From: Eledone cirrhosa
Taxonomy: Eukaryota
Assembly (NCBI GenBank): GCA_964016885.1
Contig: OZ024744.1
Coordinates: forward strand, 57,846,001-57,910,000
Length of the DNA: 64,000 bases
Direction of reading: 5' to 3'
Shown piece by piece: positions 6,882 to 51,267 of the stretch (position 1 is the stretch's first letter; every line of letters begins with the position of its first letter). The notes under the pieces are model-generated. The model worked only from the letters and a program-made list of their open reading frames with translations, was not told where the DNA came from and did not search any database. The translations under genes and the position numbers were made by a program.

Positions 6882-7110
6882 CATCATCATCATCATCATC
6901 ATCATTATCATCAACATTTAACATTTAACATCATCATCAACATTCAACATCGATTTTCCACACTTGCATGGATTAGACAGGTTGTCACATTATGGGGCAA
7001 ATCAGGTCAGATGACCATATCTTGCCCATACAGATTTGTATTTTAACTTGGTTTGTATGAGTGGATGCCCTTCCTAACACCAACCACTTTAGAGTGTTGA
7101 TTGAATGCTT
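6882..7110 (-). mobile_element. SINE/RTE-type 3' tail fragment with (CAT)n
   Basis: ggatgcccttcctaacaccaacc is the reverse complement of the family B tail motif, and there is a (CAT)n tract at the left end. Confidence 0.7.
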
Positions 7111-7139
7111 TTTATCGAAGCATCAAAACAACCATCTAA

Positions 7140-7915
7140 CAGGGTGGATAAGCTGTAAAGAACCCATGTCTTACAAGTGGAGAACTTTTCGAGCACATTG
7201 GCGAAACAATTGTGTCCAGAACTACCTGATGTCGTCATCTGAAAAAGGTAAAAAAACCACTGTCATCAGTTAAAAGGTCTCCTCTAAACAAAATATGTAC
7301 ATAAAATCGTCTGAAATGAGCAGAAGATAGCATGAACTTTTCAAAAGTTTTGTTTATGGATTAAACTCATGCTGCACTTGATGGACCTGATGGATAGAGA
7401 TTGTCATCAACGCTTGAGATGCCAACAAAGAACAGAAGGAGGCATCATGATTTGGGCAGGTATTATTGGAGGTATTATGGCTGGTCCTTGGAAAGTGGCT
7501 GACAGGGTTAAAATTACTGCAGATGATTACATAGCCTTTCCGAGGGAGCACCTTGAACCTTGGTTAAAAAAGAAAAGGATCATCTTCAAGACAACCATAA
7601 TAATCATGCAAGATAAAGCACCCTTGCACTCAATGAAGAAAACTAAAGAGTATCTGCAACAATTAGGCTTCTGTGGACATTGGAAGATAACATGGACACC
7701 CTATTCCCTCGAACTAAAGGAAATAGAAAATTGTGGAATATTCTAAACTGATGTCTTTGCAGGAATGGTCACCAATTTAGGAGCAAGGATGACCTGTGGC
7801 AGGCAATAGTGAATGTATCTTGTAGTATAACATCAGAGGAGATCTAGAAATCAACATGTTCCATGGATCGGCACCTTTTTCAGCTTATTACTAAGGCTCA
7901 TATATCCTCTACTAA
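7140..7915 (+). pseudogene. Tc1/mariner transposase remnant, DD37E spacing (TRT-like), 5'-truncated
   Basis: KNPCLTSGELF..VSRTT*CRHL..PLNK..RLK*A; FSKVLFMD*THAALDGPDG*; QQRTEGGIMIWAGI; MQDKAPLH...WTPYSLELKEIEN with 37 residues between D and E; C-terminus SKDDLWQAI..SMDRHLFQLITK. Multiple stops and frameshifts. Confidence 0.9.
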
Positions 7916-10900
7916 CCAGCTATTCTATCCCCTTCTGACCAGCTCATATACCCCTACTAACTAGCTCATCTATCCCGGACTAACCAGCCCATCTATCCCC
8001 CACTAACCTGCTCATCTATACCCTAATAACCAACTCATACATCCACTACAAACCAGCTCATATATCCCCTACTATCCAGCTCATATAGCCCCTACTAACC
8101 AGCTCATATACCCTTACTAACCAGCTCATATATCCCCTACTAACCAGCTTATATATCCCCTACTTACCAGCTCATATATCCCTTATTAACCAGGTCATAT
8201 ATATCCCATACTTACAAGCACATATATCCCATAGTAACCAGTTCATATCTCCCCTACTAACCAGCTCATCTATCCCTTACTAACCAGTTCATATATCCCC
8301 AACTAACCAGTTCATCTATGCCCTACTAACCAGCTCATATATCCCCTACTAACCAGCTCATATATCCCTTACTAACCAGTTCACATATCCTCTACTAACC
8401 AGCTGATATATCCCCTACTAACCAGCTCATATATCTCCTTCTAACCAGCTCATATACCCCCTACTAAGCCGCTCATACAGCCCTACTAACCACTACTAAC
8501 CAGTTCATATATCCCCTACTAACTAGTTCATATATCCCCTACTAACCAGCTAAACTATCTCGTACGAACCAGTTCATATTTCCCTTGGAACCGGCTCATA
8601 TATCCCCTACTAACCAGCTCATATATCCCTTACTAACCATCTCATATCTCCCCTACTAACCAGCTCATATATCCCCTAATAACCAGCTAATCTATCCCCT
8701 ACTAACCAGCTCATCTATCCCCTACTAACCAGTTCATATATCCTCTACTAACCAGCTCATATATCCCCTACTAACCAGCTCATCTATCCCCTACTAACAG
8801 GCTCATCTATCCCCTATTAACCAGCTCATCTATCCCACTACTAACCAGCTCAAATATCCCCTACTAACCAGCTCATATATCCCCTTCTAACCAGCACATA
8901 TATCCCATACTAACCAGTTCATATATCCCCTACTAACCAGCTCATATATCCAATACTAACCAGCTCATCTATCCCTTACTAACCAGTTCATATATCCCCA
9001 ACTAACCAGTTCATCTAAGCCCTACCTACCAGTTCATATATCCCCTACTAACCAGCTCATATATCCCCTACTAACCAGCTCATATATCCCCTGCTAACCA
9101 GCTCATCTATACACTACTAACCAGTTCATATATCCCCAACTAACCAGCTCATATATCCCCTACTAACCAGCTCATATATCCCTTACTAACCAGCTCATAT
9201 TTCCGCTACTAACCAGCTCATATATCCCTTACTAACCAGCTCATATATCCCCTACTAACCAACTCATATACCCCCTACTAACCAGCTCATCTATCCTCTA
9301 CTAACCAGCTCATTTATCTCCTATTAACCAGGTCATCTATCCTCTACTAACCAGCTCATATATCCCCCACTAACCAGCTCATATATCCCCTACAAACCAG
9401 CTATTATAACCCATACTAACCAGCTTATATATCACATATTAACCAGCTCATATATCCCCTATTAACCAGCTCATCTATCCCCTACTAACCAACTCGTTTA
9501 TCCCTTGCTAACCAGGTGGTATATCCCCAACTAAGCAGCTCAACTATCCCATACTAACCAGTTCATATATCCCCTACTAACCAGCTCATGTATCCCCTGC
9601 TAACCAGCTCACCTATCCCCTAATAACCAGCTCATCTATCCCCTACTCACCAGTTCATCTATCCCCTACTAACCAATTCATCTATCCCCTAATAACCAGC
9701 TCATATATCCCCTATTAACCAGCTCATATACCCTTACTAAACAGCTCATATATCCCCTACTAACCAGCTTATATATCCCCTACTAACCAGCTCCTATATC
9801 CCTTATTAACCAGGTCATATATCCCCTGCTAAACCGGCTCATATATCCTTACTAACCAGCTTACATAACCCCTACTGACCATCTCTTATATAGCCTACTA
9901 AGAAGCTCATCTATCCCCTACTAACCAGGTTATATATCCCTTACTAACCAGCTCATATATCCCTTACTAACCAGCTCATCTACACCCTACTAACCAGTTC
10001 ATATATCCCCTACTAACCAGCTAATATATGCCCTACTAACCAGTTCATATATCCCCTACTAACCAGCTCATATATCCCCTACTAACCAGCTCAGATATCT
10101 CCATCTAGTTAGCACATATACCCCCTACTAACCAGCTCATACACACCCTCCTAACCAGTAGTAACCATCTCATATATCCCCTACTAACCAGCTCATATAT
10201 TCCTTACTAACCACCTCATAAATACCTTACTAATCAGCTCATATATCCCCTACTAACCAGATCATATATCCCCTACTAACCAGTTCATATATCCCCTACT
10301 AACCAGCTCATCTATCCCCTACTAACCAGCTCATCTACCCCTACTATCCAGGTTATATATCCCTTAATAACCAGCTCATATATCCACTAGTAACCATATC
10401 ATATATCCCCTGCTAATCAGCTGATATATCCCATACTAACCAGTTCACATATCCAATATTAACCAGGTCATATATCCCCTACTAACCAGCATATATATCA
10501 CCTATTAACCAGCTCATATATATCCTACTAACCAGATCATCTATCACCTACTAACCAGCTCATATATAACTTACTAACCAGGTAGTATATACCCTAATAA
10601 CCAGCTCATATATCCCATACTAACAAGTTCATATATCCCCTACTAATCAGCTGATATATCCCCTACTAACCAGCTCATATATCGCTTACTAACCAGCTCA
10701 GATATCCTGTACTAACCAGCTCATACACCCCATACTAACCACTACTAAGCATTTCATATATCCCCTACTAACCATCTCATATATCCCCTACTAAGCACCT
10801 CATCTATCCCCTAATAACCAGTTCATATATCTCCTACTAACCAGCTCATATATCCCCTACTAACCAGCTCATATATCCTTACTAACCACCTCATATATCC

Positions 10901-13900
10901 CATACTAACCAGCTCATATATCCCTTACTAACCAACTCATATATCCCCTACTAACCAGTTCATAGATCCCCTACTAACCAGCTCATATATCCCATACTAA
11001 CCACCACATCTATCCCCTACTAACTAGGTTATATATCCCTTAATAACCAGCTCAAATAACCCTTACGAATCAGCTCATATATCCCTTACTAACCAGCTCA
11101 TATATCCCCTACTAAGCAGTTCATATATCCCCTACTAACCAGTCATATATCCCTTACTAACCAGCTCAGATACCCCCTACTAACCAGCTCATATAATCCC
11201 TACTAACCAGCTCATATAACCCCTACTAATCACCTTGTATATCAATTACTAACCTGCTCATATATCCCCTACTAACCAGCTCTTCTATCCCCTACTAGCC
11301 AGCTCATATATCCCTTACTAACCAGGTAGTATATCCTCTACTAACCAGCTCATATATCCCTTACTAACCAGTTCATATATCCCCTACTAACCAGCTCATA
11401 TAACCACTACTAGCCAGCTGATATATCCCCTAATAACCTGCTCATATATCCCCTGCTAACCAGCTCATCTATCCCCTAAAAACCAGCTCATCTATACACT
11501 ACTAACCAGTTCATCTATCCCCTAATGATCAGCGCATATATCCCCTACTAACCAGCTCATATATCACCTACTAACTAGCTGATATATCCCCTAATAACCA
11601 GCTCATATATCCCCTGCTAACCAGCTCATCTATCCCCTAATAACCAGCTCATATATCTACTACTAACCAGCTCATCTATCCCTTACTAACAAGTTCATAT
11701 ATCCCCAACTAACCAGTTCATCTACGCCCTACATACCAGTTCATATATCCCCTACTAACCAGCTTATATATCCCCTACTATCCAGCTCATCTATACCCTA
11801 CTAACTAGTTCATATATCTCCAACTAACCAGCTCATATATCCTGTACTAACCAGCTCACATATCCCCTACTAACCAGCTCATATATCCCCTACTAACCAG
11901 CTCATATACCCCCTACTAACCAGCTCATCTATCCCCTACTACCCAGCTCATCTATCCCCTACTAAGCAGCTCATCTATCCCCTATTAACCAGCGCATATA
12001 TGCTCTTCTAACCAGCTTATATATCACCTACTAACTAGCACATATATCCCCTTCTAACCAGCACATATATCCCATACTAACCAGCTCATATATCCCTTAC
12101 TAACCAGCTCACATATCCTGTACTAACCAGCTCATACACCCCCTACTAACAACTACTAACCACTACATATATCTCCTACTAACCAGCTCATATATCCCTT
12201 ACTAACCAGCTCATATATCCCTTACTAAGCACCTCATATATCCCTTACTAACCAGCTCATATATCCCTTACTTACCAGCTCATATATCCCCTACTAACCA
12301 GTTCATATATCCCCTATTAACCAGCTCATATATTCCCTACTAACCAGCACATCTATCCCCTACTAACCAGGTTATATATCCCTTACTAACCATCTCATAT
12401 ATCCCTTACTAACCAGCTCATATATCCTTTACTAACCAGCTCATCTATCCTCTACTAACCAGGTTATATATCCCTTACTAACTAGCTCATATATCCCTTA
12501 CGAATCATCTCATATATCCCTTACTAACCAGCTCATATATCCCCTACTGAGCAGTTCATATATCCCCTACTAACCAGCTCGACTATCCCTTACTAGCCAG
12601 TAATATATCCCTTACTAACCAGGTCAGATACCCCCTACTAACCAGCTCATATAATCCCTACTAACCAGCTCATATAACCCCTACTAACGAGCTTATATAT
12701 CACCTACTAACCTGCTCATATATCCACTACTAACCAGCTCATCTATCCCCTACTAGCCAGCTCATATATCCCTTACTAACCAGTTCATATATCCCCTAAT
12801 AACCAGCTCATATATCCCCTATTAACCAGCTCATCTATCCCCTACTAACCAGCTTATATATCCCTTGCTAAACAGGTTATATATCCCCTACTAAGCAGAT
12901 CAACTCTCCCATACGAACCAGTTCATATATCCCCTACTAACCAGCTCATATATCCCCTACGAGCCAGCTCATATATATCCCCTACTAACCAGCTCATGTA
13001 TCCTCTGCTAACCAGCTCAACTATCCTCTAATAACCAGCTCATCTATCTCCTACTTACCAGTTCATCTATCCCCTAATAACCAATTCATCTATCCCCTAA
13101 CAACCAGGTAATATATCCCCTACTAACCAGCTCATATACCCTTACTAAACAGCTCATATATCCCCTACTAACCAGCTTATATATCCCCTACTAACCAGCT
13201 CATATATCCCTTACTAACTAGCTCACATAACCCCTACTAACCAGCTCTTATATACCCTAGTAACCAGCTCATCTATCCCCTACAAACCAGGTTATATATC
13301 CCTTACTAACCAGCTCCTATATCCCTTACTAACCAGCTCATCTACCCTCTACTAACCAGTTCATATATCCCCTACTAACCAGCTCATATATCCTCTCCTA
13401 ACCAGCTCATATATCCGTTACTAACCACCTCATATATACCTTACTAATCAGCTCATATATCCCCTAATAATCAGCTCGTATATCCTCTACTAACAGGTTC
13501 ATATATCCCCTACTAACCAGCTCATATATCCCCTACTAACCAGCTCGTCTACCCCTACTAACAAGGTTATATATCCCTTACTAACCAGCTCATATATCCA
13601 CTAGTAACCATATCATATATCCCCTGCTAACCAGCTGATATATTCCATACTAACCAGTTCATATATCCACTATTAACGAGGTCATACGTCCCCTACTAAC
13701 CAGCTTATATATCAGCTATTAACCATCTCATATATCCCCTACTAACCAGCTATTATATCCCCTACTAACCAGCACATATATGCCCTACTAACCAGCTCAT
13801 ATATCTCCTACTAACCAGCTCATACACCCTACTAAACAGCTCATATATCCCCTACTAACCAGCTTATATATCCCCTGCTAACCAGCTCATATATCCCATA

Positions 13901-16900
13901 CTAACCAGCTCATATATCCCCTACTTACCAGCTCATATATCCCTTACTAACCAGCTCACCTATCCCCTACTTACCAGCTCATATATCCCTTACGAACCAG
14001 CTCACCTATCCCCTACTAACCAGCTCATATATCCCCTACTAACTAGCTCATCTATACCCTACTAACCAGTTCATATATCTCCTACTAACCAGCTCATATA
14101 TACCCTGCTAACCAGCTCATATATCCCTTACTAACCAGCTCACATATCCTGTACTAACCAGCTCATACACCCCTACTAACCACTACTAACCAATTCATAT
14201 ATCCCCTATTAACCATCACATATATCCCCTACTAAGCATATTATCTATCCCCTACTAACCAGTTCATATATCTCCTACTAACCAGCTCATATATCCCCTA
14301 CTAACCAGTTCACATATCCCCTACTAACCAACTCATATATCCCCTACTAACCAGCACATCTATCCCCTACTAACCAGGTTATATATCCCTTACTAACCAG
14401 CTCATATATCCCCCGCTAACCAACTTATATATCACATATTAACCAGCTCATATATCCCCTATTAACCAGCTCATCTATCCCCTACTAACCATCTCATATA
14501 TCCCTTGCTAACCAGGTTATATATCCCCTACTAAGCAGCTCAACTATCCCATACGAACCAGTTCATATATCCCCTACTAACCAGCTCATGTATCCCCTGC
14601 TAACCAGCTCAACTATCCCCTAATAACCAGCTCATCTATACCCTAATTACCAGTTCATCTATCCCCTACTAACCAATTCATCTATCCCCTAATAATCAGG
14701 TCATATATCCCCTACTAACCAGCTCATATACCCTCACTAAACAGCTCATATATCCCCTACTAACCAGCTCATATATCCCCTACTAACCAGCTCACATAAC
14801 CCCTACTAACCAGCTCTTATATAGCCTACTAACCAGCTCATCTATCCCCTACTAACCAGGTTATATATCCCTTACTAACAAGCTCATATACCCTCACTAA
14901 CCAGTTCATATATGCCCTACTAACCAGTTCATATATCCCCTACTGACCAGCTCATATATCCTCTACTAACCAGCTCATATATTTCCATCTAGTTAGCACT
15001 TATACCCCCTACTAACCAACTCATACACACCCTACTAACTACTAGTAACCAGCTCATATATCCCCTACTAGCCAGCTCATATATCCCCTACTAATCAGCT
15101 CATATATCCACTACTAACCAGTTCATATATCCCCTACTAACCAGCTCATATATCCCCTACTAACCAGCTCATCTACACCAATTAACCAGGTTATATATCC
15201 CTTACTAACCAGCTCATATATCCACTAGTAAACATATCATATATCCCCTGCTAACCAGCTGATATATTCCATACTAACCAGTTCATATATCCACTATTAA
15301 CGAGGTCATACATCCCCTACTAACCAGCTTATATATCAGCTATTAACCAGCTCATATATCCCCTACTAACCAGCTATTATATCCCCTACTAACCAGCACA
15401 TATATGCCCTACTAACCAGCTCATATATCCCCTACTAACCAGCTCATATACCCTACTAAACAGCTCATATATCGCCTACTAACCAGCTCATATATCCCAT
15501 ACTACCCAGCTCATATATCCCCTACTAACCACCTCATATATACCCGACTAACCAGCTCATATATCCCTTACTAACCAGCTCAGATATCCTGTACTAACCA
15601 GCTCATACACCCTACTAACCACTACTATCCATTTCATATATCCCCTACTAACCATCTCATATATCCCCTACTAAGCACCTTATCTATCCCCTACTAACCA
15701 GTTCATATATCTCCTACTAACCCGCTCATATATCCCCTACTAACCAGATCATATATCCCTTACTAACCAGCTCATATATCCCCTACTAACCAGTTCACAT
15801 ATCCCCTACTAACCAGCTCATATATCCCCTACTAACCAGCACATCTATCCCTTACTAACCAGGTTATATATTCCTTACTAACCTGCTCATATATCCCTTA
15901 CTATCCAGCTCATATATCCCTTACTAACCAGCTCATATATCCCCCACTAAACAGCTCATATATCCCTTACTAACCAGCTCATATATCCCCTACTAACCAG
16001 CAATTATAACCCCTACTAACCAGGTTATATATCACATATTAACCAGCTTATATATCCCCTATTGACCAGCTCATCTATCCCCTACTAACCAGCTTATATA
16101 TCCTTGCTAACCAGGTTATATATCCCCTACTAAACAGCTCAACTATCCCATACGAACCAGTTCATATATCCCCTACTATCCAGCTCATATATCCACTACG
16201 AGCCAGCTCATATATATCCCCTACTAACAAAGCTCATGTATCCCCTGCTAACCAGCTCAACTATCCTCTAATAACCAGCTCATCTATCCCCTACTTACCA
16301 GTTCTTCTATCCCCTATTAACAAATTCATCTATACCCTAATAACCAGGTCATATATCCCCTACTAACTAGCTTATACATCCCCTACTAACCAGCTCATAT
16401 ATCCCTTACTAACAAGCTCACATAACCCCTACTAACCAGCTCATCTATCCCCTACTAACCAGGTTATATATCCCTTACTAACCAGCTCATATATCCCTTA
16501 CTAACCAGCTCATCTACACCCTACTAACCAGTTCATATATCCCCTACTAACCAACTCATATATGCCCTACTAACCAGTTCATATATCCCCTACTAACCAG
16601 CTCATATATCCTCTACTAACCAGCTCATATATCTCCATCTAGTTAGCACTTATACCCCCTACTAACCAACTCATACACACCCTATTAACCACTAGTAACC
16701 AGCTCATGAATCCCCTACTAACCAGCTCATATATCCCCTCCTAACCAGCTCATATATCCTTTACTAACCACCTCATAATTACCTTACTAATCAGCTCATA
16801 TATGCCCTACTAATCAGCTCATATATCCCCAACTAACCAGCTCATATACCCTACTAAACAGCTCATATATCCCCTACTAACCAGCTTATATATCCCCTAC

Positions 16901-19900
16901 TAACCAGCTCATATATCCCATACTAACCAGTTCATATATCGCCTACTAACCAGCTCATATATCCCATACTAACCAGCTCATATATCCCCTACTTACCAGC
17001 TCATATATCCCTTACTAACCAGCTCACCTATCCCCTACTAACCAGCTCATATATCCCCTACTAACTAGCTCATCTATAGCCTACTAACCAGTTCATATAT
17101 CCCCCAATAACCAGCTTATATATCCCGTACAAACCAGCTCACATATCCCCTACTAACCAGCTCAAATATCCCCTACTAACCAGCTCATATATCTCCTACT
17201 AACCAGCTCATATACCTCCTACTAACCAGCTCATACAGCCCCTACTAACCACTACTAACCAGCTCATATATCCCTTACAAATAAGCTCATATATCCCCTA
17301 TTAACCACCTCATATAGCTCCTCTTAACCAGTTCATATAACCCCTTCTAACCAGCTCACATATCCCTTACTAACCAGCTCATATAAACCCTACTAACGAA
17401 CTCATATACCCCCTACTAATTAGCTCATCTATCCCCTACTAACCATTTCATCTATCCCAACTACCCAGCTCATCTATCCCCTACTAACCATCACATCTAT
17501 CCCCTACTACCCAGCTCATCTATCCAATACTAAGCAGCTCATCTATCTTCTACTAACCAGCTCATATATCTCTTACAAACCAGGTAGTATATCCTCTACT
17601 AACCAGCTCATATATCCGATACTAACCAGTTCATATATTGCCTACTAACCAGCTCATATATCCCATACTAACCAGTTCATATATCCTCTAAGAACCAGCT
17701 CATATATCCCCTACTAGCCAGCTCATATATCCCCTACTGACCAGCTCATATATCTACTGCTAACCAGCTCAACTATCACCTAATAACCAGCTCATCTATC
17801 CTCTAAAAACCAGTTCATCTATCCCCTAACAACCAGCTAATATATGCCCTACTAAACAGCTATTATATCCCCTAACCAGCACATATATGTACTACTAACC
17901 AACTCATATATCCCTGACTAACCAGCTCATATACCCTACTAAAAATCTCATATATCGCCTACTAACCAGCTTATATATCCTTTACTACCCAGCTCATATA
18001 TCCCTTATTAACCAGGTCATATATCCCCTCGTAACCAGCTCATATATCCCCTACAAACCAGCTCATCTATCCCCTACTAACCATCTCATACAGCCCCTAC
18101 GAACCAATACTAACCAGCTCATATATCCGCTACTAACCAGCTCATATATCCCCTACTAACCAGCTCATATATACCCTACTGACTAGCTCATCTATCCCCT
18201 ATTAACCAGGATATATATCCCTTACTAACCAGATCATATATCCCTTACTAACCAGCTCATATATCCCCTACTAACTAGTTCATATATCCCCAATTAGCCT
18301 GTTCATCTATGCCCTACTAACCAGCTCATGTATCCCCTACTAACCAGCTCCTCTATCACCTACTAACGAAATTATATATCCCCTACTAATAGCTCATATA
18401 TCCCTTACTAACCAGTCATATATCCCTTACTAACCAGCTCAGATACCACCTACTAACCAGCTCATATATCCCCTACTAACCAGCTCATATAACCCCTACT
18501 AACCAGCTTATATATCATCTACTATCTAGCTTATATATACCCTACTAAGCAGCACATATATCCCATACTAACCAGTTCATATATCCCCTAATAACCAGCT
18601 CATCTATCTCTTACTAACAAGTTCATATATCCCCAACTAACCAGTTCATCTACGCCCTACATACCAGTTCATATGTCCCCTACTAACCATCTTCTATATC
18701 CCCTACTAACCAGCTCATCTATACCCTACTAACCAGTTCATATATCGTCAACTAAGCAGCTCATATATCCCCTATTAACCAGCTCATATATCCCTTACTA
18801 ACCAGCTCGCATATCCCCTACTAACCAGCTCATATATCCCCTACTAACCAACTCATATATCTCCTTCTAACCAGCTCATATACCTACTACTAACCAGCTC
18901 ATACAGCCCCTACGAACCACTACTAACCAGCACATATATCCCTTACAAGTAAGCTCATATATCCCCTACTAACCAGCTCATATATCCCCTACTAACCAGT
19001 TCATATAGCCCCTACTAACCAGCTCATATATCCCCTAATAACCAGCTCATATATCTCCTTCTAAACAGCTCATATACCCCCTACTAACCAGCTCAAAAAG
19101 CCTCTATTAACCACTAGTAACCAGCTAATATATCCCATACTAACCAGTTCATATATCCCCTACTAACCAGCTCATATAACCCCTACTAACCAGCTTATTT
19201 ATCACATATTAAATAGCTCATATATCCTCTAATAACCAGCTCATATATCACCAACTAAACAGCTCATATATGCCCTACTAACCAGGTCATATATCCCCTA
19301 CTAACCAGCTCATATACCCTTACTAAACAGCTCATACATCCCCTACAACCTGCTTATCTATACCCTACTAACCAGCTCGTATATCCCTTACTAACCAGGT
19401 TATATATCCCCTATTAACCACCGCATATATCACCTACTAACCAGTTTGTATAACCCTTTCTAACCAGCTCATACATCCCTTACTAACCAGCTCATATATC
19501 CCCTACTATCCAACTCATATACCCCCTAATAACCAGCTCATATATCCCCTACTAAGCAGCTCATCTATCCACTACAAACCAGCTCATCTATCCTCTACTA
19601 ACCGGCTCATATATCTCTTAAAAACCAGGTAGTATATCCCCTACTAACGAGATTATGTATCTCCTACTAACCAGCTCATCTATCCTCTACTAACCACCTC
19701 ATATATCCCTTACTAACCAGGTAGTATATCGCCTACTAACCAGCTCATATATCCCAATCTAACCAGTTCATATATTCCCTAATAACCAGCTCATATATCC
19801 CCTACTAGCCAGCTCATATATCCCCTACTAACCAGCTCATATATCCACTGCTAACCAGCTCAACTATTCCCTATTAACCAGCTCATCTATCCCCTAAAAA

Positions 19901-34900: not shown

Positions 34901-35332
34901 ACCAGCTCATATATCCCCTACTAACAAACTCATATACCCTCTACTAACATGCTCATATATCCCCTACTAACCAGTTCATCTATCCCCTATTAACCAGCTC
35001 ATATACCCCCTACTAACCAGCTCAGAAATCCCCTAATGACCAGCTCATATATATCCTACTAACCAGCTCATATATCCCTTACTAACCAGATCATATATCC
35101 TCTACTAACCAGCTCATATAACCCCTATTAACCAGATTATATATCACCTACTAAACTGTTCATCTATCCCGTAATAACCAGTTCATCTATCCCCTAATAA
35201 CCAACTAATATTTCCCCTACTAACCAGCTCATATATGCCTTACTAACAAGCTCATATATCCCCTACTAACCAGCTTATATATCCCCTACTAACCAGATCA
35301 TATATCCCCTACTAACGAGATTATGTATCTCC

Positions 35333-38300: not shown

Positions 38301-41300
38301 TTCTAACCAGCTCATATACCCCCTACTAACCAGCTCATACACCCCCTACTAACCACTACTACCCAGTTCATATATCCTCTACTAACCAGCTCATATATCC
38401 CCTACTAACCAGCTATAATATATCCACTACTAACCAGATCATCTATCCCCTCCTAACCAGTTCATATATCCCCGACTAACCAGCTCATATATTCCCTACC
38501 AACCAGCTAATATATACCCTACTAAGCAGCTCATCTATCCCTTACTAACCAGCCCATATGCCCCCTACTAACCAGCTCATATGCCCCCTACTAACCAGCT
38601 CATATATTCCCTATTAACCAGCTAATCTATCCCTTACTCACCACCTCATATATCGCTTACTAACCACCTCATCTATCCCCTAGTAACCAGCTTATACATC
38701 CCTTACTAACCAGCTCATCCATCCCTTACTAACCAGCTCGGAAATACCCTACTAACCAGCTCGTATATCCCCTATTAACCAGCTCATATATCCCCTACTA
38801 ACCAGCTCACATATCCCCTACTAACCAGCTCACATATCCCCTACTAACCAGCTCATATAGCCCCTACTAACCAGCTCATCTAACCCCTACTAACCAGTTC
38901 ATCTATCCCCTATTAACCAGCTCATATACCCCCTACTAACCAGCTCATATATCCCTTACTAACCAGGTCATATATCCCCTACTAACCAGCTCATACATCC
39001 TATACTAACCAGTTCATATATCTTCTACTAATCAACTCATATATCCCCTACTAACCAGCTCATATATCCCCTACTAACCAGCTCATATATCCCCTACTAA
39101 CCAGCTCATATACCCCTTACTAACCAGGTCATATATCCCATACTAACCAGCACATATATCCCCAACTAAGCAGTTTATCTATGCCCTGTTAACGAGCTCA
39201 TATATCCCCTACTAACCATCTGATATATCCCATATTAACCAGCTCATCTATCCACTATTAACCAGTTCATGTATCTTTTACTAACCAGCTCATTTATCCC
39301 TTACTAACCAGGTCATATATCCTTTACTAACCAGCTCACCTATCCCCTAGTAACCAGGTTATATATCCCTTACTAACCAGCTCATATATCCCTTACTAAC
39401 CAGATAATATATCCCCAACTAACCAGCTCATACATCCCATGCTAACCAGTTCATATATCTTCTACTAATCAGCTCATATATCCCCTACTAACCAGCTCAT
39501 GTATCCCCTAATAACCAGCTCATCTATCCCATAATAACCAGCTCATATATCCCCTACCAACCAACTCATATACCCTCTACAAACCAGCTCATATACACCC
39601 TACTAACCAGCTCATATATCCCCTACTAACCAGCTGATATATCCCCTACTAACCAAATCATCTATCCCTTACTAACCAGTTCATATATTCTCTACTAACC
39701 AGCTCATATATCCCATATTAACCAGCTCATCTACACCCTACTAACCAGATCATATATCCCTTATTAACCAGGTCATATATCCCATACTAACCAGCTCATA
39801 TATCCCCTTCTAACCAGTTCATATATCCCTTAGTAACCAGCTCATATATGCCTTACTAACAAGCTCATATATCCCCTAATAACCAGCTTATATATTCCCT
39901 ACTAACCAGCTCATATATCCCCTACTAACCAGCTCATATATCTCCTAATCAGCTCATATACCCTCTACTGTCCAGCTCATACAGCCTCTATTAACCACTA
40001 GTAACCATCTCATATATCCCATACTAAACAGTTCATACATCCCCTACTAACAAGCTCATATAACCCCTACTAACCAGGTTATATATCACATATTAAATAG
40101 CTGATATATCACCTAATAACCAGCATATATATACCCTAATAACCAGCTCATATATACCTTATTAACCAGGTCATATATCCCCTTCTAACCGGCTCATATA
40201 TCCCTTACTAACCTGCTCACATATCCCCTACTAACCAGCTCATATATACCCTACTAACCAGTTCATATATCCCCTACTAACCGGCTCATGTATGCCCTAC
40301 TAACCGGCTCATATATGCCCTACTAACCAGTTCATATATCCCCTACTAACCAGCTCATATATACCTTACTAATAAGCTCATATATCCCCTACTAACCAAC
40401 TCATATATCCCCTACTAACCAGTTCATATATCCCCTAATAAGCAGCTCATCTATGCCCTACTAACCTGTTGATATATCCCCTACTAACCAGCTCATATAT
40501 CCCCTACTAACCAATTCATCTATCCCCTACTAACCAGGTTATATATGCTTTAGTAACCAGCTCATATATCCCTTACTAACCAGCTCATATATCCCTACTA
40601 ACCATCTCATCTATCCCCTACTAACCAGCTCATATATCCCCTACTAACCAGCTCATATAACCCCTATTAACCAGCTTATATATCACCTATTAACCTGCTC
40701 ATATATCCCCTACTAACCAGCTCATCTATCCCTTACTAAGCAGCTCATATATCCCTTACTAACCAGGTAGTATATCCCCTACTAACCAGCTCATATATCC
40801 CATACGGACCAGTTCATATATCCTCTATTAACCAGCTCATATATCCCCTGCTAATGAACCCATCTAGCCCCTAATAACCATCTCATCTATCCCCTACTAA
40901 ACAGTTCATCTATCCCCTAATAACCAGTTCATCTATCCCCTAATAACCAGCTCATATATCCCCTACTAACCAGCTCATATATGCCTTACTAACAAGCTCA
41001 TATATCCCCTACTAACCAGCTTTTATATCCCCTACTAACCAGATCATATATCCCCTACTAACGAGATTATGTATCTCCTACTAACCAGATCATATATCCC
41101 TTATTAACCAGGTCATATATCCCATATTAACCAGCACATATATTCCCTACTAACCAGCTGATATATCCCCTTCTGACCAGTTCATATATCCCTTACTAAC
41201 CAGCTCATATATGCCTTACTAACAAGCTCCTATATCCCCTACTAACCAGCCTATATATTCCATATTAACCAGCTCATATATCCCCTAATAACCAGCTCAT

Positions 41301-44130
41301 ATATCCCTTTCTAATCAGCTCATATACCCTCTACTAACCAGCTCATACAGCCTCTATTAACCACTAGTAACCAGCTCATATATCCCATACTAACTAGTTA
41401 ATATATCCCCTACTAACCAGCTCATATATCCCCTGCTAACCAGCTCATATATCCCCTAATAACCATCTCATCTATCCCCTACTAACAAGCTCATATATCC
41501 CCTGCTAACCAGCTCATATAACCCCTACTAACCAGGTTATATATCACATATTAAATAGCTCATATATCACCTAAAAACCAGCTCATATATCCCCAACTAA
41601 CCAGATCGTATATGCCCTACTAACCAGCTCATATATCCTTTATTATCCAGCTCATATGCCCTTACTAAACAGCTCATATATCCCCTACTAACCAGCTCAT
41701 ATATCCCTTATTAACCAGGTCATATATCCCCTACTAACCAGCGCATATATCCCTTACTAACCTGCTCACATATCCCCTACTAACCAGCTCATATATACCC
41801 TACTAACCAGTTCACATATCCCCTACTAACCAGCTCATATATCCCCTACTAACCAGTTCATATATCCCCTACTAACCAGGTTATATATCCCTTACTGACC
41901 AGCTCATATATCCCCTACTAACCATCTCATATATCCCTCCTAGCGAGCTCATATATCCCATACTAACCAGATCATATATCCCCTATCAACCAGCTCATAT
42001 ATCCCCTACTAACCAGATTATATATCACCCATTAACCAGCTCATATATCCACTACTAACCAGCTGATCTATCACCTACTAACCAGCTCATATATCTCCTT
42101 ATAAACAGCTCATATACCCCCTACTAACTAGCTCATACAGCCTCTATTAACCACTAGTAACCAGCTCATATATCCCATACTAACCAGTTCGTATATCCCC
42201 TACTAACCAGCTCATATATCCCCTACTAACCAGCTCATCTATCCCCTACTAAGCAGCTTATCTATCCCCTAATAACCAGTTCATCTATCACCTACTAACC
42301 AGTTCATATATCCCCTACTAACCAGCTTATATATCCCCTACTAACCAGCTCATATATTCCCTACTAACCAGCTCATATATCCCGTAATAACCAGGTTATA
42401 TATACCCTCCTAACCAGCTCATATAGCCCTTATTAACCAGGTCATATATCCCATATTAACCAGCACATATATCCCCTAATAACCAGGTTATATATACCCT
42501 ACTAACCAGCTCATATATCCCTTACTAACCAGTTCATATATCCCCAACTAACCAGTTCATCTATGCCCTATTAACCAGCTCATATATCCTCTACTAACCA
42601 GCTCATATATCCCTTACTGACCCGCTCACATTTACCCTACTAACCAGCTCATATATCCTCTACTAACCAGCGCATATACCTCCTTCTAACCAGCTCATAT
42701 ACCCCCTACTAACCAGCTCATACACCCCCTACTAACCACTACTACCCAGTTCATATATCCTCTACTAACCAGCTCATATATCCCCTACTAACCAGCTATA
42801 ATATATCCACTACTAACCAGATCATCTATCCCCTCCTAACCAGTTCATATATCCCCGACTAACCAGCTCATATATTCCCTACCAACCAGCTAATATATAC
42901 CCTACTAAGCAGCTCATCTATCCCTTACTAACCAGCCCATATGCCCCCTACTAACCAGCTCATATGCCCCCTACTAACCAGCTCATATATTCCCTATTAA
43001 CCAGCTAATCTATCCCTTACTCACCACCTCATATATCGCTTACTAACCACCTCATCTATCCCCTAGTAACCAGCTTATACATCCCTTACTAACCAGCTCA
43101 TCCATCCCTTACTAACCAGCTCGGAAATACCCTACTAACCAGCTCGTATATCCCCTATTAACCAGCTCATATATCCCCTACTAACCAGCTCACATATCCC
43201 CTACTAACCAGCTCACATATCCCCTACTAACCAGCTCATATAGCCCCTACTAACCAGCTCATCTAACCCCTACTAACCAGTTCATCTATCCCCTATTAAC
43301 CAGCTCATATACCCCCTACTAACCAGCTCATATATCCCTTACTAACCAGGTCATATATCCCCTACTAACCAGCTCATACATCCTATACTAACCAGTTCAT
43401 ATATCTTCTACTAATCAACTCATATATCCCCTACTAACCAGCTCATATATCCCCTACTAACCAGCTCATATATCCCCTACTAACCAGCTCATATACCCCT
43501 TACTAACCAGGTCATATATCCCATACTAACCAGCACATATATCCCCAACTAAGCAGTTTATCTATGCCCTGTTAACGAGCTCATATATCCCCTACTAACC
43601 ATCTGATATATCCCATATTAACCAGCTCATCTATCCACTATTAACCAGTTCATGTATCTTTTACTAACCAGCTCATTTATCCCTTACTAACCAGGTCATA
43701 TATCCTTTACTAACCAGCTCACCTATCCCCTAGTAACCAGGTTATATATCCCTTACTAACCAGCTCATATATCCCTTACTAACCAGATAATATATCCCCA
43801 ACTAACCAGCTCATACATCCCATGCTAACCAGTTCATATATCTTCTACTAATCAGCTCATATATCCCCTACTAACCAGCTCATGTATCCCCTAATAACCA
43901 GCTCATCTATCCCATAATAACCAGCTCATATATCCCCTACCAACCAACTCATATACCCTCTACAAACCAGCTCATATACACCCTACTAACCAGCTCATAT
44001 ATCCCCTACTAACCAGCTGATATATCCCCTACTAACCAAATCATCTATCCCTTACTAACCAGTTCATATATTCTCTACTAACCAGCTCATATATCCCATA
44101 TTAACCAGCTCATCTACACCCTACTAACCA
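35333..44130 (+). repeat. Near-identical ~4.4-kb tandem duplication within the satellite
   Basis: Rare variant actgtccag at 35561 and 39967 (offset 4406); tcggaaatac at 38738 and 43121 (offset 4383, one 23-bp unit less). Confidence 0.9.
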
Positions 44131-47100
44131 GTTCATATATTCCTTACTAACCGGCTGACCTATCCACTACTAACCAGCTCATATATCCCCTACTAACTAG
44201 CTCATATATCCCCTACTAACCAGCTGATATATCCCTACTAACCAGCTCATATATCCCATAATATCCAACACATATATCCCCAACTAACTAGTTCATCTAT
44301 GCCCTATTAACGAGCTCATATATCCCCAACTAACTAGTTCATCTATGCCCTATTAACGAGCTCATATATCCCCTACTAACCAGCTCATATACTCACTACT
44401 AACCAGCTTATCTATACCCTACTAACCAGTTCATATATCCCTTACTAACCAGCTCATATATCCCATACTAACCAGCTCATCTATCCGCTACTCACCAGTT
44501 CATATACCCCTTACTACCCAACTCACATATCCCCTACTAATCAGCTCATATATCGCCTACTAACCAGCTCATATATCTCCTACTAACAAGCTCATATAGC
44601 CCTGACTAACCATCTCAAACACCCCCTACTAACCACTACTAACCTGTTTATATATCCCCTACTAACCAGCTCATATATCCCCTACTAACCAGCTCATCTA
44701 TCCCCTATTACCAGGTTATATGTCCCATTCTAACCAGCTCATATATCCTCTACTAACCAGCTCATCTATCCCCTACTAACCAGCTCATCTATCCCCTAGC
44801 AACCAGCTCATATATCCCCTACTATCCAGCTCATATATCCCTTACTAACCAGGTCATATATCCCCTAATAACCAGGTTATATATACCCTACTAACCAACT
44901 CATATATCCCTTACTAACCAGTTCATATATCCCCAACTAACCAGTTCATCTATGCCCTACTAACCAGCTCATATATCCCCTACTAACCAGCTCGTATATC
45001 CCTTACTAACCCGCTCACATATCCCCTACTAACCAGTTCATATATCTTCAACTAACCAGCGCATATACCTCCTTCTAACCAGCTCATATACCCCCTACTA
45101 ACCAGCTCATACACCCCTTACTAACCACTACTAACCAGTTCATATATCCCCTACTAACCAGCTCATATATCCCCTACTAACCAGCTAATATATCCCCTAC
45201 TAACCAGCTCATCTATGCCCTACTAACCAACTCATATACCCTCTACTAACCAGCTCATATGCACCCTACTAACCAGCTCATATAATCCCTATTAAGCAGC
45301 TCATCTATCCCTTCCTGACTAGCTCATATATCGCTTACTAACCACCTCATCTATCCCCTAGTAACCAACTTATATATCCCTTACTAACCAGCTCATCTAT
45401 CCCTTACTAACCAGCTCAGCTATCCCCTACTAACTAGCTCATCTATCCCCTACTAACCAGCTCATCTATCCCCTAATAACCACCTCAGAAATCCCCTACT
45501 AACCAGCTTGTATATCCCCTACTAACCAGCTCATATATCCCCTACTAACCAGCTCATCTATCCCCTATTAACCAGCTCATATATCCCCTAATAACCAGGT
45601 TATATATACCCTACTAACCAACTTATATATCCCTTACTAACCAGCTCATATATCCCCTACTAACCAGCTCATATATCCCCTACTAACCGGCTCATATATG
45701 CCTTACTAACCAGGTCATATATCCCCTACTAACCAGCTCATACATCCCCTACTAACTAGCTCATCTATCCCCTACTAACCAGCTCATCTATCCCCTATTA
45801 ACCAGCTCATATATCCCCTACTAACCAGCTCATACATCCCATACTAACCAGCTCATATATCCCCTCTAACCAGCTCATCTATCCCCTAGCAACCAGCTCA
45901 TAGATCCCCTACTAACCAGTTCATCTATGCCCTACTAACCAGCTCATATATCCCCTACTAACCAGCTCATATATCCCTTACTAACCCGCTCACATATCCC
46001 CTACTAACCAGCTCATATATCCTCTACTAACCAGCGCATATACTTCCTTCTAACCAGCTCATATACCCCCTACTAACCAGCTCATACACCCCTTACTTAC
46101 CCCAACTAACCAGTTCATATATCCCCTACTAACCAGCTCATATATCCCTTACTAACCAGCTCATCTATTCCTTACTAACGAGCTCATTTATCCCCTACTA
46201 ACTAGCTCATCTATCCCCTACTAACCAGCTCATCTATCCCCTAATAAACAGCTCAGAAATCCGCTACTAACCAGCTCGTATATCCCTTACTAACCAGCTC
46301 ATATGTCCCCTACTAACCAGCTCACATATCCCCTACTAACCAGCTCATATATCCCCTACTAACCAGCTCATCTATCCCCTACTAACCAGTTCATCTATCC
46401 CCTATTAACCAGCTCATATATCACCTACTAACCAGCTCATATACCCCCTACTAACCAGCTCACATATCCCCTACTAACCAGCTCATATAGCCCCTACTAA
46501 CCAGCTCATCTAACCCCTACTAACCAGTTCATCTATCCCCTATTAACCAGCTCATATACCCCCTACTAACCAGCTCATATATCCCTTACTAACCAGGTCA
46601 TATATCCCCTACTAACCAGCTCATACATCCTATACTAACCAGTTCATATATCTTCTACTAATCAACTCATATATCCCCTACTAACCAGCTCATATATCCC
46701 CTACTAACCAGCTCATATATCCCCTACTAACCAGCTCATATACCCCTTACTAACCAGGTCATATATCCCATACTAACCAGCACATATATCCCCAACTAAG
46801 CAGTTTATCTATGCCCTGTTAACGAGCTCATATATCCCCTACTAACCATCTGATATATCCCATATTAACCAGCTCATCTATCCACTATTAACCAGTTCAT
46901 GTATCTTTTACTAACCAGCTCATTTATCCCTTACTAACCAGGTCATATATCCTTTACTAACCAGCTCACCTATCCCCTAGTAACCAGGTTATATATCCCT
47001 TACTAACCAGCTCATATATCCCTTACTAACCAGATAATATATCCCCAACTAACCAGCTCATACATCCCATGCTAACCAGTTCATATATCTTCTACTAATC

Positions 47101-49695
47101 AGCTCATATATCCCCTACTAACCAGCTCATGTATCCCCTAATAACCAGCTCATCTATCCCATAATAACCAGCTCATATATCCCCTACCAACCAACTCATA
47201 TACCCTCTACAAACCAGCTCATATACACCCTACTAACCAGCTCATATATCCCCTACTAACCAGCTGATATATCCCCTACTAACCAAATCATCTATCCCTT
47301 ACTAACCAGTTCATATATTCTCTACTAACCAGCTCATATATCCCATATTAACCAGCTCATCTACACCCTACTAACCAGTTCATATATTCCTTACTAACCG
47401 GCTGACCTATCCACTACTAACCAGCTCATATATCCCCTACTAACTAGCTCATATATCCCCTACTAACCAGCTGATATATCCCTACTAACCAGCTCATATA
47501 TCCCATAATATCCAACACATATATCCCCAACTAACTAGTTCATCTATGCCCTATTAACGAGCTCATATATCCCCAACTAACTAGTTCATCTATGCCCTAT
47601 TAACGAGCTCATATATCCCCTACTAACCAGCTCATATACTCACTACTAACCAGCTTATCTATACCCTACTAACCAGTTCATATATCCCTTACTAACCAGC
47701 TCATATATCCCATACTAACCAGCTCATCTATCCGCTACTCACCAGTTCATATACCCCTTACTACCCAACTCACATATCCCCTACTAATCAGCTCATATAT
47801 CGCCTACTAACCAGCTCATATATCTCCTACTAACAAGCTCATATAGCCCTGACTAACCATCTCAAACACCCCCTACTAACCACTACTAACCTGTTTATAT
47901 ATCCCCTACTAACCAGCTCATATATCCCCTACTAACCAGCTCATCTATCCCCTATTACCAGGTTATATGTCCCATTCTAACCAGCTCATATATCCTCTAC
48001 TAACCAGCTCATCTATCCCCTACTAACCAGCTCATCTATCCCCTAGCAACCAGCTCATATATCCCCTACTATCCAGCTCATATATCCCTTACTAACCAGG
48101 TCATATATCCCCTAATAACCAGGTTATATATACCCTACTAACCAACTCATATATCCCTTACTAACCAGTTCATATATCCCCAACTAACCAGTTCATCTAT
48201 GCCCTACTAACCAGCTCATATATCCCCTACTAACCAGCTCGTATATCCCTTACTAACCCGCTCACATATCCCCTACTAACCAGTTCATATATCTTCAACT
48301 AACCAGCGCATATACCTCCTTCTAACCAGCTCATATACCCCCTACTAACCAGCTCATACACCCCTTACTAACCACTACTAACCAGTTCATATATCCCCTA
48401 CTAACCAGCTCATATATCCCCTACTAACCAGCTAATATATCCCCTACTAACCAGCTCATCTATGCCCTACTAACCAACTCATATACCCTCTACTAACCAG
48501 CTCATATGCACCCTACTAACCAGCTCATATAATCCCTATTAAGCAGCTCATCTATCCCTTCCTGACTAGCTCATATATCGCTTACTAACCACCTCATCTA
48601 TCCCCTAGTAACCAACTTATATATCCCTTACTAACCAGCTCATCTATCCCTTACTAACCAGCTCAGCTATCCCCTACTAACTAGCTCATCTATCCCCTAC
48701 TAACCAGCTCATCTATCCCCTAATAACCACCTCAGAAATCCCCTACTAACCAGCTTGTATATCCCCTACTAACCAGCTCATATATCCCCTACTAACCAGC
48801 TCATCTATCCCCTATTAACCAGCTCATATATCCCCTAATAACCAGGTTATATATACCCTACTAACCAACTTATATATCCCTTACTAACCAGCTCATATAT
48901 CCCCTACTAACCAGCTCATATATCCCCTACTAACCGGCTCATATATGCCTTACTAACCAGGTCATATATCCCCTACTAACCAGCTCATACATCCCCTACT
49001 AACTAGCTCATCTATCCCCTACTAACCAGCTCATCTATCCCCTATTAACCAGCTCATATATCCCCTACTAACCAGCTCATACATCCCATACTAACCAGCT
49101 CATATATCCCCTCTAACCAGCTCATCTATCCCCTAGCAACCAGCTCATAGATCCCCTACTAACCAGTTCATCTATGCCCTACTAACCAGCTCATATATCC
49201 CCTACTAACCAGCTCATATATCCCTTACTAACCCGCTCACATATCCCCTACTAACCAGCTCATATATCCTCTACTAACCAGCGCATATACTTCCTTCTAA
49301 CCAGCTCATATACCCCCTACTAACCAGCTCATACACCCCTTACTTACCCCAACTAACCAGTTCATATATCCCCTACTAACCAGCTCATATATCCCTTACT
49401 AACCAGCTCATCTATTCCTTACTAACGAGCTCATTTATCCCCTACTAACTAGCTCATCTATCCCCTACTAACCAGCTCATCTATCCCCTAATAAACAGCT
49501 CAGAAATCCGCTACTAACCAGCTCGTATATCCCTTACTAACCAGCTCATATGTCCCCTACTAACCAGCTCACATATCCCCTACTAACCAGCTCATATATC
49601 CCCTACTAACCAGCTCATCTATCCCCTACTAACCAGTTCATCTATCCCCTATTAACCAGCTCATATATCACCTACTAACCAGCTCATATACCCCC
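43200..49695 (+). repeat. Near-identical 3,247-bp tandem duplication within the satellite
   Basis: atatccaaca at 44261 and 47508; ctcagaaatccg at 46252 and 49499. Both offsets are 3247. Confidence 0.9.
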
Positions 49696-50935
49696 TACTA
49701 AGCAGCTCATATATCCCCTACTAACCAGCTCATATACCCCCTAATAACCAGCTCATATATCCTTTACTAACCAGCTCATATATCCCCTACTAACCAGCTC
49801 ATATATCCCATATTAACCAGCTCATCTACCCCCTACTAACCAGTTCATATATCCCTTACTAACCAGCTCACATATCCACTACTAACCAGCTCATATATCC
49901 CCTACTAACCAGCTCATATATCCCCTACTAACCAGCTGATATAGCCCTTACTATCCAGGTCATATATCCCCTACTAACCAACACATATATCCCCAACTAA
50001 CCAGTTCATCTATGCCCTATTAACGAGCTCATATATCCACTACTAACCAGCTCATCTATCCCTTAATAACCAGTTCATATATCCCCTACTAACCAGCTCA
50101 TTTATACGCTACTAACCAGTTCATATATCCCTTACTAACCAGGTCATATATCCCATACCTACCAGCTCATCTATCCGCTACTAACAAGTTCATATATCTC
50201 TTACTACCCGGCTCACATATCCCCTACTAACCAGCTCATATATCCCCTACTAACCAGTTCCTATATCCCCTACTAACTAGCTAATATATCCCCTACAAAC
50301 CAGCTAATCTATCCCTATTACCAGGTTATATATCCCTTACTAACCAGCTCATATATCCCCTACTAACCAGCTCATATATCCCCTACTAACCAGCTCATAT
50401 ACCCCCTACTAACCAGATCATATACCCCCTACTAACCAGCTCATCTATACTCTACTAACCAGCTCATCTCTCCGCACCTAGCAGCTCAGATACCTCCTAC
50501 TAACCAGCTCATATATCCCCTACTAACCAGCTCATATATCCCCTACTAACCAGCTCATATATCCCCTACTAACCAGCTCATATACCACCTTCTAACCAAC
50601 TCATCTATACCCTACTAACCAGCTGATATTTCCCCTACTAACCAACCAGCTCATATATCCCTTACTAACCAGGTCATATATCCCATACTAACCAGCTCAT
50701 CTATCCCTTACTAACTAGCTCATATATCCCTCACTAACCAGCTCATCTATCCCTTACTAACCAGCTCATCTATCCCCTACTAACCAGCTCATCTATCCCC
50801 TACTAACCAGCTCATGTATCCCCTACTAACCAGCTCATCTATCCCCTACTAACCAGCTCATCTATCCCCTACTAACCAGCTCATATATCCCTTACTAACC
50901 AGCTCATATATCCCCTGCTAACCAGTTCATCTATC

Positions 50936-51267
50936 AGTTTTGAACCCTGTTTATTTGATTATTTCTATTCATTCCATGTTCATTACTCTATGTATTCACT
51001 TCAGTACATCAAACAATTAAATTAGTATTTTCTTGTTTATATGAGTTTTAATTACACCTCGCTATTTATTTGAAACAGTGAAAGTTTACATAAATTTAGT
51101 AAATGGCCATAGTTTCAGCTGTGTCTTACAGAACCTCCCATTTTTACACACCACATGTCTATAACTGTTGCCATTATTCTGTGGAAATTTTGTTGAATTC
51201 CAACAAGTAGTTTTTAAATACAATAAAAAAAATGTTACGTTGTTAATAATTTGAAATACTATGTGTG
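50936..51267 (+). mobile_element. Probable 3' UTR and right terminal inverted repeat of the Tc1 element
   Basis: AT-rich non-repetitive segment with AATAAA (~51221), ending AATAATTTGAAATACTATGTG(TG)|TA. It resembles recalled TRT-type termini and the TA target site. The left TIR is not in view for confirmation. Confidence 0.55.

What the first reader, a model, noticed from the sequence alone, without database searches (positions are those of the whole stretch)
7861..51267. 43-kb satellite apparently born inside a Tc1 (DD37E) transposon, from the stop-codon region of its transposase
Seen: the transposase C-terminus (SMDRHLFQLITK) runs straight into the first unit. In an adjacent frame the junction reads GGC TCA TAT ATC CTC TAC TAA (GSYILY*). 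The array ends ...CCAGTTCATCTATC and is followed by a ~330-bp AT-rich segment ending in a TIR-like sequence plus TA. Known: Tc1 transposases typically end in a G-x-[YFT] motif, and transposon-derived satellites exist. Inference: the ancestral element read ...GCTCATATATCCCCTACTAACCAGTTCATCTATC..., and the GCTCATATATC/GTTCATCTATC microhomology 23 bp apart seeded amplification of one unit to ~1,870. Both junctions appear to be preserved, so the origin may be resolvable to the base.
Basis: partly seen in the sequence, partly recalled or inferred. Interest (0 to 1): 0.85.

Follow-up and report, generated by a model that had tools for sequence, protein, structure and literature searches.

The report
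Satellite grown from transposase stop codon
A 23-base piece covering the last codons and stop signal of a dead jumping gene is repeated about 1,870 times in a row here, while sister copies elsewhere in the genome carry 1 to 98 repeats at the same spot, so this genome likely preserves the stages by which a transposon turns into satellite DNA, a route already known from other transposons.

Summary
The array is real: 7896-50935, about 1,876 units of 23 bp, inside a dead DD37E (TRT-like) Tc1 element of a probable octopod genome. The unit is the transposase's last six codons, its stop and three more bases. An intact homologue ends in the same residues, so the repeat came from the coding end rather than being captured. 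The array was probably not born at this locus. All 13 of 27 family loci that keep this site carry the unit there: 1, 2, 3, 13, 16, 17, 28, 48, 53, 59, 82, 98 and 1,876 copies. The copies form a star tree (one old burst) and share unit variants, so the mobile ancestor likely carried a short array. Here a block of about 60 units was then multiplied about 30-fold. A second 25-kb array and a 6-unit piece have no transposon flanks. This copy has lost its left TIR. No function was found. The route is known (miDNA4, Tetris, Ogre, Chenopodium tnp2), and this scan already noted other transposon-born satellites in this genome. What is special is the base-level origin and the full length series.

The parts
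6929..7149 (.). Dispersed high-copy repeat (SINE-like; label is my inference) abutting the 5' break. The element's left TIR and first ~430 bp are missing.
   Evidence: Matches many loci at 70-78%. Very high contig depth at 7044-7115. No left-end match in the 37 kb upstream, and none on this contig other than the right TIR.
7150..7915 (+). Broken DD37E (TRT-like) Tc1 transposase remnant, from about residue 72 of the homologue to the stop. It has several stops and frameshifts, and a 4-base loss just before the last codons puts GSYILY* out of frame.
   Evidence: 68% identity to intact P0002 over the open part.
7896..50935 (+). Tandem array of about 1,876 units of 23 bp. The unit is codons S-Y-I-P-Y, the stop and flanking bases. 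The first unit overlaps the coding end; the last partial unit is the 11-base imperfect repeat.
8486..48368 (+). At least 30 copies of one private marker (a variant unit followed by a 10-base extra block), about 1.4 kb apart on average. This is the trace of repeated block duplication.
   Evidence: 34 hits, of which I set aside 4 as out-of-phase matches (20233, 29803, 31306, 34057). None in the C4 array.
35971..44131 (+). Youngest block duplication 1: 35971-39748 repeated 4,383 bp later, with 3 mismatches in about 3.8 kb.
43198..49701 (+). Youngest block duplication 2: 43198-46454 repeated 3,247 bp later, with no mismatch.
50936..51263 (+). 3' untranslated part and right terminal inverted repeat of the same element (TIR homology about 51056-51263), followed by a TG/TA microsatellite.
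   Evidence: Sibling TIR pairs are about 80% alike over 113-154 bp, and weaker out to about 225 bp.

Best explanation
The array is a 43-kb expansion of a 23-bp minisatellite that this DD37E Tc1 family carries at its transposase stop codon; the repeat likely began by slippage between two 11-base imperfect direct repeats 23 bp apart, was likely already a few units long when the element spread, and here likely grew by repeated duplication of kilobase blocks. Shown: (1) the unit is homologous to the coding end, because it spells the C-terminus conserved in intact homologues; (2) every family copy that keeps the site has the unit, at 1 to 1,876 copies, with the same left and right phase where not deleted; (3) arrays carry copy-private amplified variants, so growth went on after insertion; (4) this array contains block duplications of many ages. 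Inferred: (a) the first duplication used the pair of repeats that differ only at unit position 7 (A in the first unit, C in the last partial unit), which explains why both letters persist in most arrays; (b) it happened in the mobile element or very early after insertion; (c) growth had two phases, unit-scale slippage to 1-2 kb as in the siblings, then unequal exchange of blocks of about 60 units and longer, about 30-fold; (d) the process is neutral and the array has no function; (e) array pieces later left or lost the element, giving the flankless arrays on C4.
For: Homologue ends: P0002 KKGSSIPY, P0007 QGSHIPY; sibling L050 reads in frame to NKGSYIPY*. Length series: L054 1 unit split by a SINE (at most 2), L058 2, L062 3, L052 13, L060 16, L056 17, L050 28, L064 48, L051 53, L053 59, L055 82, L057 98. 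Star tree: copies are 7-13.5% (K2P) from the leave-one-out majority, and short and long arrays are interleaved, e.g. L062 (3 units) groups with L053 (59) at bootstrap 82-85. The A7C variant is at 7% or more in 9 of 11 arrays, against 0-1 of 11 for the six other A>C sites. The four commonest shared variants exceed all 5,000 within-class shuffles. No array has a fixed private substitution, which argues for early or pre-insertion duplication. Private amplified variants: T15A 36% in L050, C12T 62% in L060, a shorter unit in L053, a 10-base block in L056. Block history: at least 30 marker copies; 69% of 10-unit windows have a partner closer than the 5th percentile of a unit-shuffled control; duplicated blocks range from 0% to about 7% divergence. 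Census: all 385 of 385 pattern matches fall in the window (189), nine sibling copies (99), the C4 array with its inverted piece (96) and one 6-unit orphan (1). Run X4 (organism B) has summed depth up to 13,700 on the element's 3' part and 0-9 on the array, whereas X1 has 40-125 and 10,000-16,000, so a relative seems to hold the element in bulk without long arrays.
Against: The founder's unit number is not observed. Shared variants could also come from mutation hot spots or from exchange between arrays; T10C and C14T/A sit at the edges of the C run, where slippage recurs. The shuffle test treats arrays as independent and some arrays gave few clean units (4-12). A7C is nearly absent from L053 and L060, and 2 of 11 last partial units shown lack the C or are deleted. 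The tree is mostly unresolved, and it does not group the window copy with L051/L052 although they share the 4-base loss. X4 also has no cover at 50954-50985, so diverged sequence is missed there and a diverged unit could be too. Depths of contigs are not copy numbers. The two youngest duplications (about 7.6 kb) are so identical that assembly error is not excluded.
Confidence: 0.78

Rival explanations
1. The mobile element carried only one unit plus the 11-base repeat, and each inserted copy made its own first duplication (many parallel births from one seed).
For: L054 has one unit and L058 two. Short copies are scattered in the tree. Organism B seems to hold the element in bulk with almost no array. 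A7C can be regenerated from the seed in every copy.
Against: Ten arrays of 13 or more units share one consensus with no fixed private change, although flanks are about 4-9% diverged at non-CpG sites. By my rough estimate this needs duplication within the first ~40% of the time since insertion in all of them. C2T recurs in 6 of 11 arrays and is not explained by the seed.
Confidence: 0.3
2. The repeat was born at this locus, and the other copies got their arrays from it.
For: It is by far the largest array, and both junctions are in place.
Against: This copy is 5'-truncated and among the most diverged. Its private marker is absent from the C4 array and from 10 of 11 sibling arrays; L056 has a different 10-base block. 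Siblings have their own private variants.
Confidence: 0.05
3. The element captured a pre-existing satellite, as proposed for miDNA4.
For: Flankless arrays exist on C4 (1,093 units and 6 units), and the large one is more diverged (11.7%) than the window array.
Against: The unit encodes the C-terminus and stop conserved in intact transposases from other sources. All other unit loci are inside the element.
Confidence: 0.03
4. The 43-kb structure is partly artificial or chimeric: falsely duplicated blocks in the assembly, or the left and right halves come from two copies joined through their arrays.
For: Two blocks are 99.9-100% identical. No listed contig bridges the right junction. The left TIR and target site are lost, so the ends cannot be paired.
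Against: About 35 kb remains without those blocks and shows a nested history with one marker from end to end. The left junction is bridged exactly in X1-X3. Both flanks share small features with L051/L052.
Confidence: 0.12

Closest known systems
miDNA4 of Xenopus tropicalis (Scalvenzi and Pollet; primary paper not read; seen as passages in reviews PMC12628747 and PMC9659126)
   Same: A Tc1/mariner-type element with an internal monomer present once or as arrays of variable length, short direct repeats invoked, and later arrays without terminal repeats.
   Different: miDNA4 is a non-coding MITE, and the review says the repeat was captured. Here the element is transposase-coding, and protein homology shows the unit is its own coding end.
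CficCl-61-40 satellite from CACTA tnp2 in Chenopodium (PMC7320549; abstract and Results part 1 of 2 read)
   Same: [quoted passage not shown]
   Different: That is a CACTA element and a major satellite (up to 3.8% of the genome), attached to deletion derivatives. Here it is a Tc1 element, the array is enclosed by both element halves, and it is minor (about 3,400 units in the assembly).
Ogre 3'UTR repeats of Lathyrus sativus (PMC7004042; abstract and Discussion read) and Tetris TIR-220 of Drosophila virilis (PMC4079207; abstract and outline)
   Same: Short arrays dispersed by an element, with occasional expansion to long arrays at a few loci.
   Different: Those are a retrotransposon UTR and a foldback TIR, with units of non-coding origin. 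Expansion there was mapped to (peri)centromeric or heterochromatic sites; location was not testable here.
Minisatellite birth between short flanking repeats (Haber and Louis 1998, as described in PMC6947457 section 3.1; primary not read)
   Same: First duplication by slippage or unequal crossing-over between 5-10 bp repeats flanking the unit, then amplification.
   Different: Here the repeat pair is 11 bases with one mismatch that survives as a polymorphism in most arrays, and growth passed minisatellite size.
DD37E/TRT family of Tc1-like transposons (PMC5630946; parts 1-2 of 5 and supplement passages)
   Same: DD37E spacing, 337-338 aa homologues, shared motifs (LDGPDGW, QQGGGG, QDNAPSH, PDLNPIE, SMD-x-RL). 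A long TIR as in XtTRT (202 bp).
   Different: The parts read list vertebrates, a protozoan and related fungal elements, and mention no internal tandem array. All copies found here are dead.

Membership tests
DD37E/TRT Tc1-like transposons | 37 residues between the second D and the E | tested here: met
   37 in the window and in P0002; same spacing in L050, L054 and L058 of six siblings scanned (the other three gave no match to the pattern, which I did not follow up).
DD37E/TRT Tc1-like transposons | Catalytic-domain motifs as in DrTRT/XtTRT | tested here: met
   Compared by eye: supplement alignment rows of PMC5630946 against alignment A1. P0002 is 50-51% identical to fish transposases P0036 and P0059.
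DD37E/TRT Tc1-like transposons | Falls in the TRT clade, not DD37E/L18 or DD37E/Mosquito | not tested
   Three DD37E groups exist (PMC10379824 passages). No tree with reference sequences was built.
DD37E/TRT Tc1-like transposons | Terminal inverted repeats and TA target duplication | tested here: inconclusive
   Met in siblings: TIR pairs found in 6 of 7 tested, with ends mostly beside TA. In the window copy only the right TIR remains.
DD37E/TRT Tc1-like transposons | N-terminal HTH DNA-binding domain | tested here: inconclusive
   Pfam HTH_Tnp_Tc3_2 and DDE_3 hit P0002; no Pfam hit for the 113-aa window fragment. The window copy has lost its N-terminus.
Satellite DNA | Long head-to-tail array (tens of kb) | tested here: met
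   43 kb here and 25 kb on C4.
Satellite DNA | Regular higher-order repeat | tested here: not met
   No array-wide period. Only local block duplications of varied lags.
Satellite DNA | Heterochromatic or centromeric location | not testable with these tools
   No chromatin or cytogenetic data.
miDNA4-type MITE-borne satellite | Monomer single or in variable arrays inside element copies, bounded by short direct repeats | tested here: met
miDNA4-type MITE-borne satellite | Non-coding MITE carrier with a captured repeat | tested here: not met
   The carrier encodes a transposase and the unit is its coding end.

The most novel reading that the evidence does not exclude
One transposon burst sowed the same seed at 13 or more sites, and growth has a threshold. 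Arrays creep to 1-2 kb by slippage and then, at permissive loci only, run away by block duplication (nothing lies between 98 and 1,093 units). The largest runaway sits on a contig that may be the hemizygous Z chromosome and that holds other transposon-born satellites, so the family would be a natural experiment on what makes a locus turn a minisatellite into a satellite.
Probability: 0.2. Interest if true: 0.7.

Novelty: new member of a known kind. Interest (0 to 1): 0.45.

Why it matters
Most transposon-to-satellite cases rest on sequence likeness and cannot fix the direction or the starting base. Here protein homology fixes both. One genome holds a near-complete series: a single unit, minisatellites, a 43-kb array still inside the element, and arrays without flanks. 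Because the seeds are the same age and sequence, differences in length must come from locus or chance, which makes models of satellite growth testable. The principle is not new, the satellite is minor (about 78 kb in 3 Gb), and no function is indicated.

Tried and rejected
Left TIR upstream of the window copy: none in 37 kb by BLAST or profile. Element flanks around the C4 arrays: none in 90 kb around the large one or 9 kb around the small one. Searches for an empty site for the orphans found only other repeats and a local duplication. Source of the orphans: unresolved; the 6-unit piece matches five arrays equally at 90-92%, and the longest exact matches between the two big arrays (70-82 bp) use only common variants. 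The inverted 10-unit piece is closest to the C4 array (94%). Function: no fold of six units (0 kcal/mol), no ORF of 120 aa or more in the array, no Rfam family there. No RNA holder was listed, which is no evidence either way. My first two marker patterns were too loose and too strict (7 hits); one search is the one used. An intact copy of this family was not found in the genome. Literature searches showed no paper on this repeat or on a satellite from a TRT stop codon; the library lacks most subscription papers, and Repbase and Dfam were not available. A term search in bioRxiv 10.1101/2024.12.09.627507 gave no hits, and its supplements are closed. Earlier scan notes by sequence: none.
Full report
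Observation. Tandem Repeats Finder reports one array from 7896 to 50935 with the 23-base consensus GCTCATATATCCCCTACTAACCA. A wrap-around decomposition gives 1,876 units; the 1,718 full-length ones are 9.8% from consensus, evenly along the array. On the left a broken transposase runs into the first unit: SMDRHLFQLITK starts at 7860 and GSYILY* at 7895 in the next frame. On the right the array stops in a partial unit and is followed by about 330 bp that ends near 51263 before a TG/TA microsatellite.

The element. The window is G000:C28:57846001-57910000 in a 3.0-Gb genome. A named homologue from Octopus sinensis (P0043) and the repeat landscape suggest an octopod; that is inference. Searches with the transposase part, the 3' part and a sibling's 5' part gave 19, 35 and 27 matches, which I collapse to 27 loci including the window. 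The two parts lie together in the same orientation in siblings. Sibling ends form inverted repeats in 6 of 7 tested, and three siblings measure 1.38-1.48 kb without their arrays, with internal deletions. D..E spacing is 37, and the motifs match the DrTRT and XtTRT rows in the supplement of PMC5630946. I call it TRT-like; clade placement against the other two DD37E groups (PMC10379824 passages) was not tested. No intact copy was found. Copies are 7-13.5% from the leave-one-out majority, with a mostly unresolved, star-like tree. The window copy lacks the left TIR and about 430 bp, with a dispersed repeat at the break and no left end in 37 kb upstream.

Where the unit comes from. Most siblings have four more bases before the first unit, and L050 reads in frame to FQLITNKGSYIPY*. 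Intact homologues end KKGSSIPY (P0002) and QGSHIPY (P0007). The unit therefore spells the conserved C-terminus and stop, which fixes the direction: coding end first, repeat second. The first unit usually has A at position 7 and the last partial unit usually C. Both letters persist at 7% or more in 9 of 11 arrays, while the six other A>C changes reach that level in 0-1 arrays. This fits a first duplication between the two 11-base repeats, the mechanism described for minisatellite birth in PMC6947457 section 3.1. That step is inferred.

Not born here. Thirteen of the 27 loci keep the site and all 13 carry the unit; the other 14 are fragments that do not reach it. Counts: L054 1 (split by a SINE; at most 2), L058 2, L062 3, L052 13, L060 16, L056 17, L050 28, L064 48, L051 53, L053 59, L055 82, L057 98, window 1,876. 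Short and long arrays are interleaved in the tree. Several arrays amplified private variants, so growth continued in place. No array has a fixed private substitution, and four variants recur across arrays more than in any of 5,000 within-class shuffles. I read this as a short array already in the mobile element. Against that reading: hot spots at the C run or exchange between arrays could give the same pattern, some arrays gave few clean units, and run X4 (organism B) shows the element in bulk with depth 0-9 on the array, which suits a one-unit ancestor. Independent early births therefore stay a serious rival.

How it reached 43 kb. A private marker, a variant unit followed by a 10-base block, occurs at 30 places from 8486 to 48368 (34 hits, 4 set aside as out of phase), about every 1.4 kb. 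It is absent from the C4 array. The array is thus likely about 30 descendants of a block of about 60 units, the size of the larger sibling arrays. Duplicated blocks range from about 7% divergence at the left to nearly identical at the right. There is no array-wide higher-order period. The two youngest duplications, 3.8 kb with 3 mismatches and 3.3 kb with none, are either live length variation or assembly error.

Escape. A 29-base pattern has 385 genome matches against 0 for the control, and all 385 lie in stretches I fetched. Besides the element copies there is a 25-kb array on C4 (1,093 units, 11.7% diverged) with no element sequence in 90 kb. An inverted 10-unit piece lies beyond a Penelope-like 3' end (my label, from the translated motif), and there is a 6-unit orphan elsewhere on C4. 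Their source copies could not be assigned. More diverged loci can escape this pattern, as L054, L056 and L058 do.

Support from runs. Exact contigs bridge the left junction in X1-X3, one sample that may be the assembly's source. None listed bridges the right junction. Long reads were not available. Contigs matching the window exactly have depth 2-6.5, while most sibling-derived contigs have about 7-15. C28 (136.5 Mb) is also out of the descending size order of the other numbered contigs seen. Both hint at a hemizygous chromosome, as described for octopus Z (PMC10925132 passages). This is a lead only, since contig depth is not copy number and heterozygosity gives the same signal.

Comparison and verdict. 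Expansion of element-internal repeats into satellites is documented for miDNA4 (review passages), Tetris (abstract), Ogre (abstract and Discussion) and a CACTA transposase piece in Chenopodium (abstract and part of Results). Earlier notes of this scan report piggyBac-MITE, Helitron and ribozyme satellites in the same genome (not checked by me). My searches found no report of this repeat. It is a new, unusually well-resolved member of a known kind, with no sign of function. Interest 0.45.

Noticed in passing
window 4529-4782: 5.2 copies of a 49-bp unit that looks cut from the dispersed repeat seen at about 6460-6520. Possibly a second, small repeat-derived minisatellite.
   Followed up: no
window 686-2353: Gypsy-type reverse transcriptase / RNase H / integrase remnant (label from the motifs), broken by a stop near 1852 and truncated.
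   Followed up: no
G000:C4:370083470-370108510 (L071-L073): Second array of the same unit, 25 kb, with C2T in half of its units and no element flanks. A Penelope-like 3' end separates it from an inverted 10-unit piece. Its last 3 units and 4.9 kb of right flank are duplicated 8.26 kb downstream at 99.8% identity.
   Followed up: partly
L101 (G000:C4 near 31,862,500, minus strand): Six units alone in unrelated sequence, with no element remains and no evident target duplication.
   Followed up: partly
contig C28: Out of size order, and window-exact contigs show about half the depth of most sibling-derived ones. Earlier notes place two other transposon-born satellites on it. Possible sex chromosome.
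   Followed up: partly
run X4 (organism B): The same element is far more abundant relative to the neighbouring SINE-like repeat than in X1-X3, which suggests a separate large burst in another species.
   Followed up: partly
L053 and L061 (G000:C3 near 357.04 and 377.27 Mb): The 5' parts are 98% identical against about 80% for other copies, which points to a segmental duplication rather than transposition.
   Followed up: no
window 4367-4424 and 55127-55573: A tRNA-like match, likely a SINE head, and a LINE-like reverse transcriptase tail on the minus strand.
   Followed up: no
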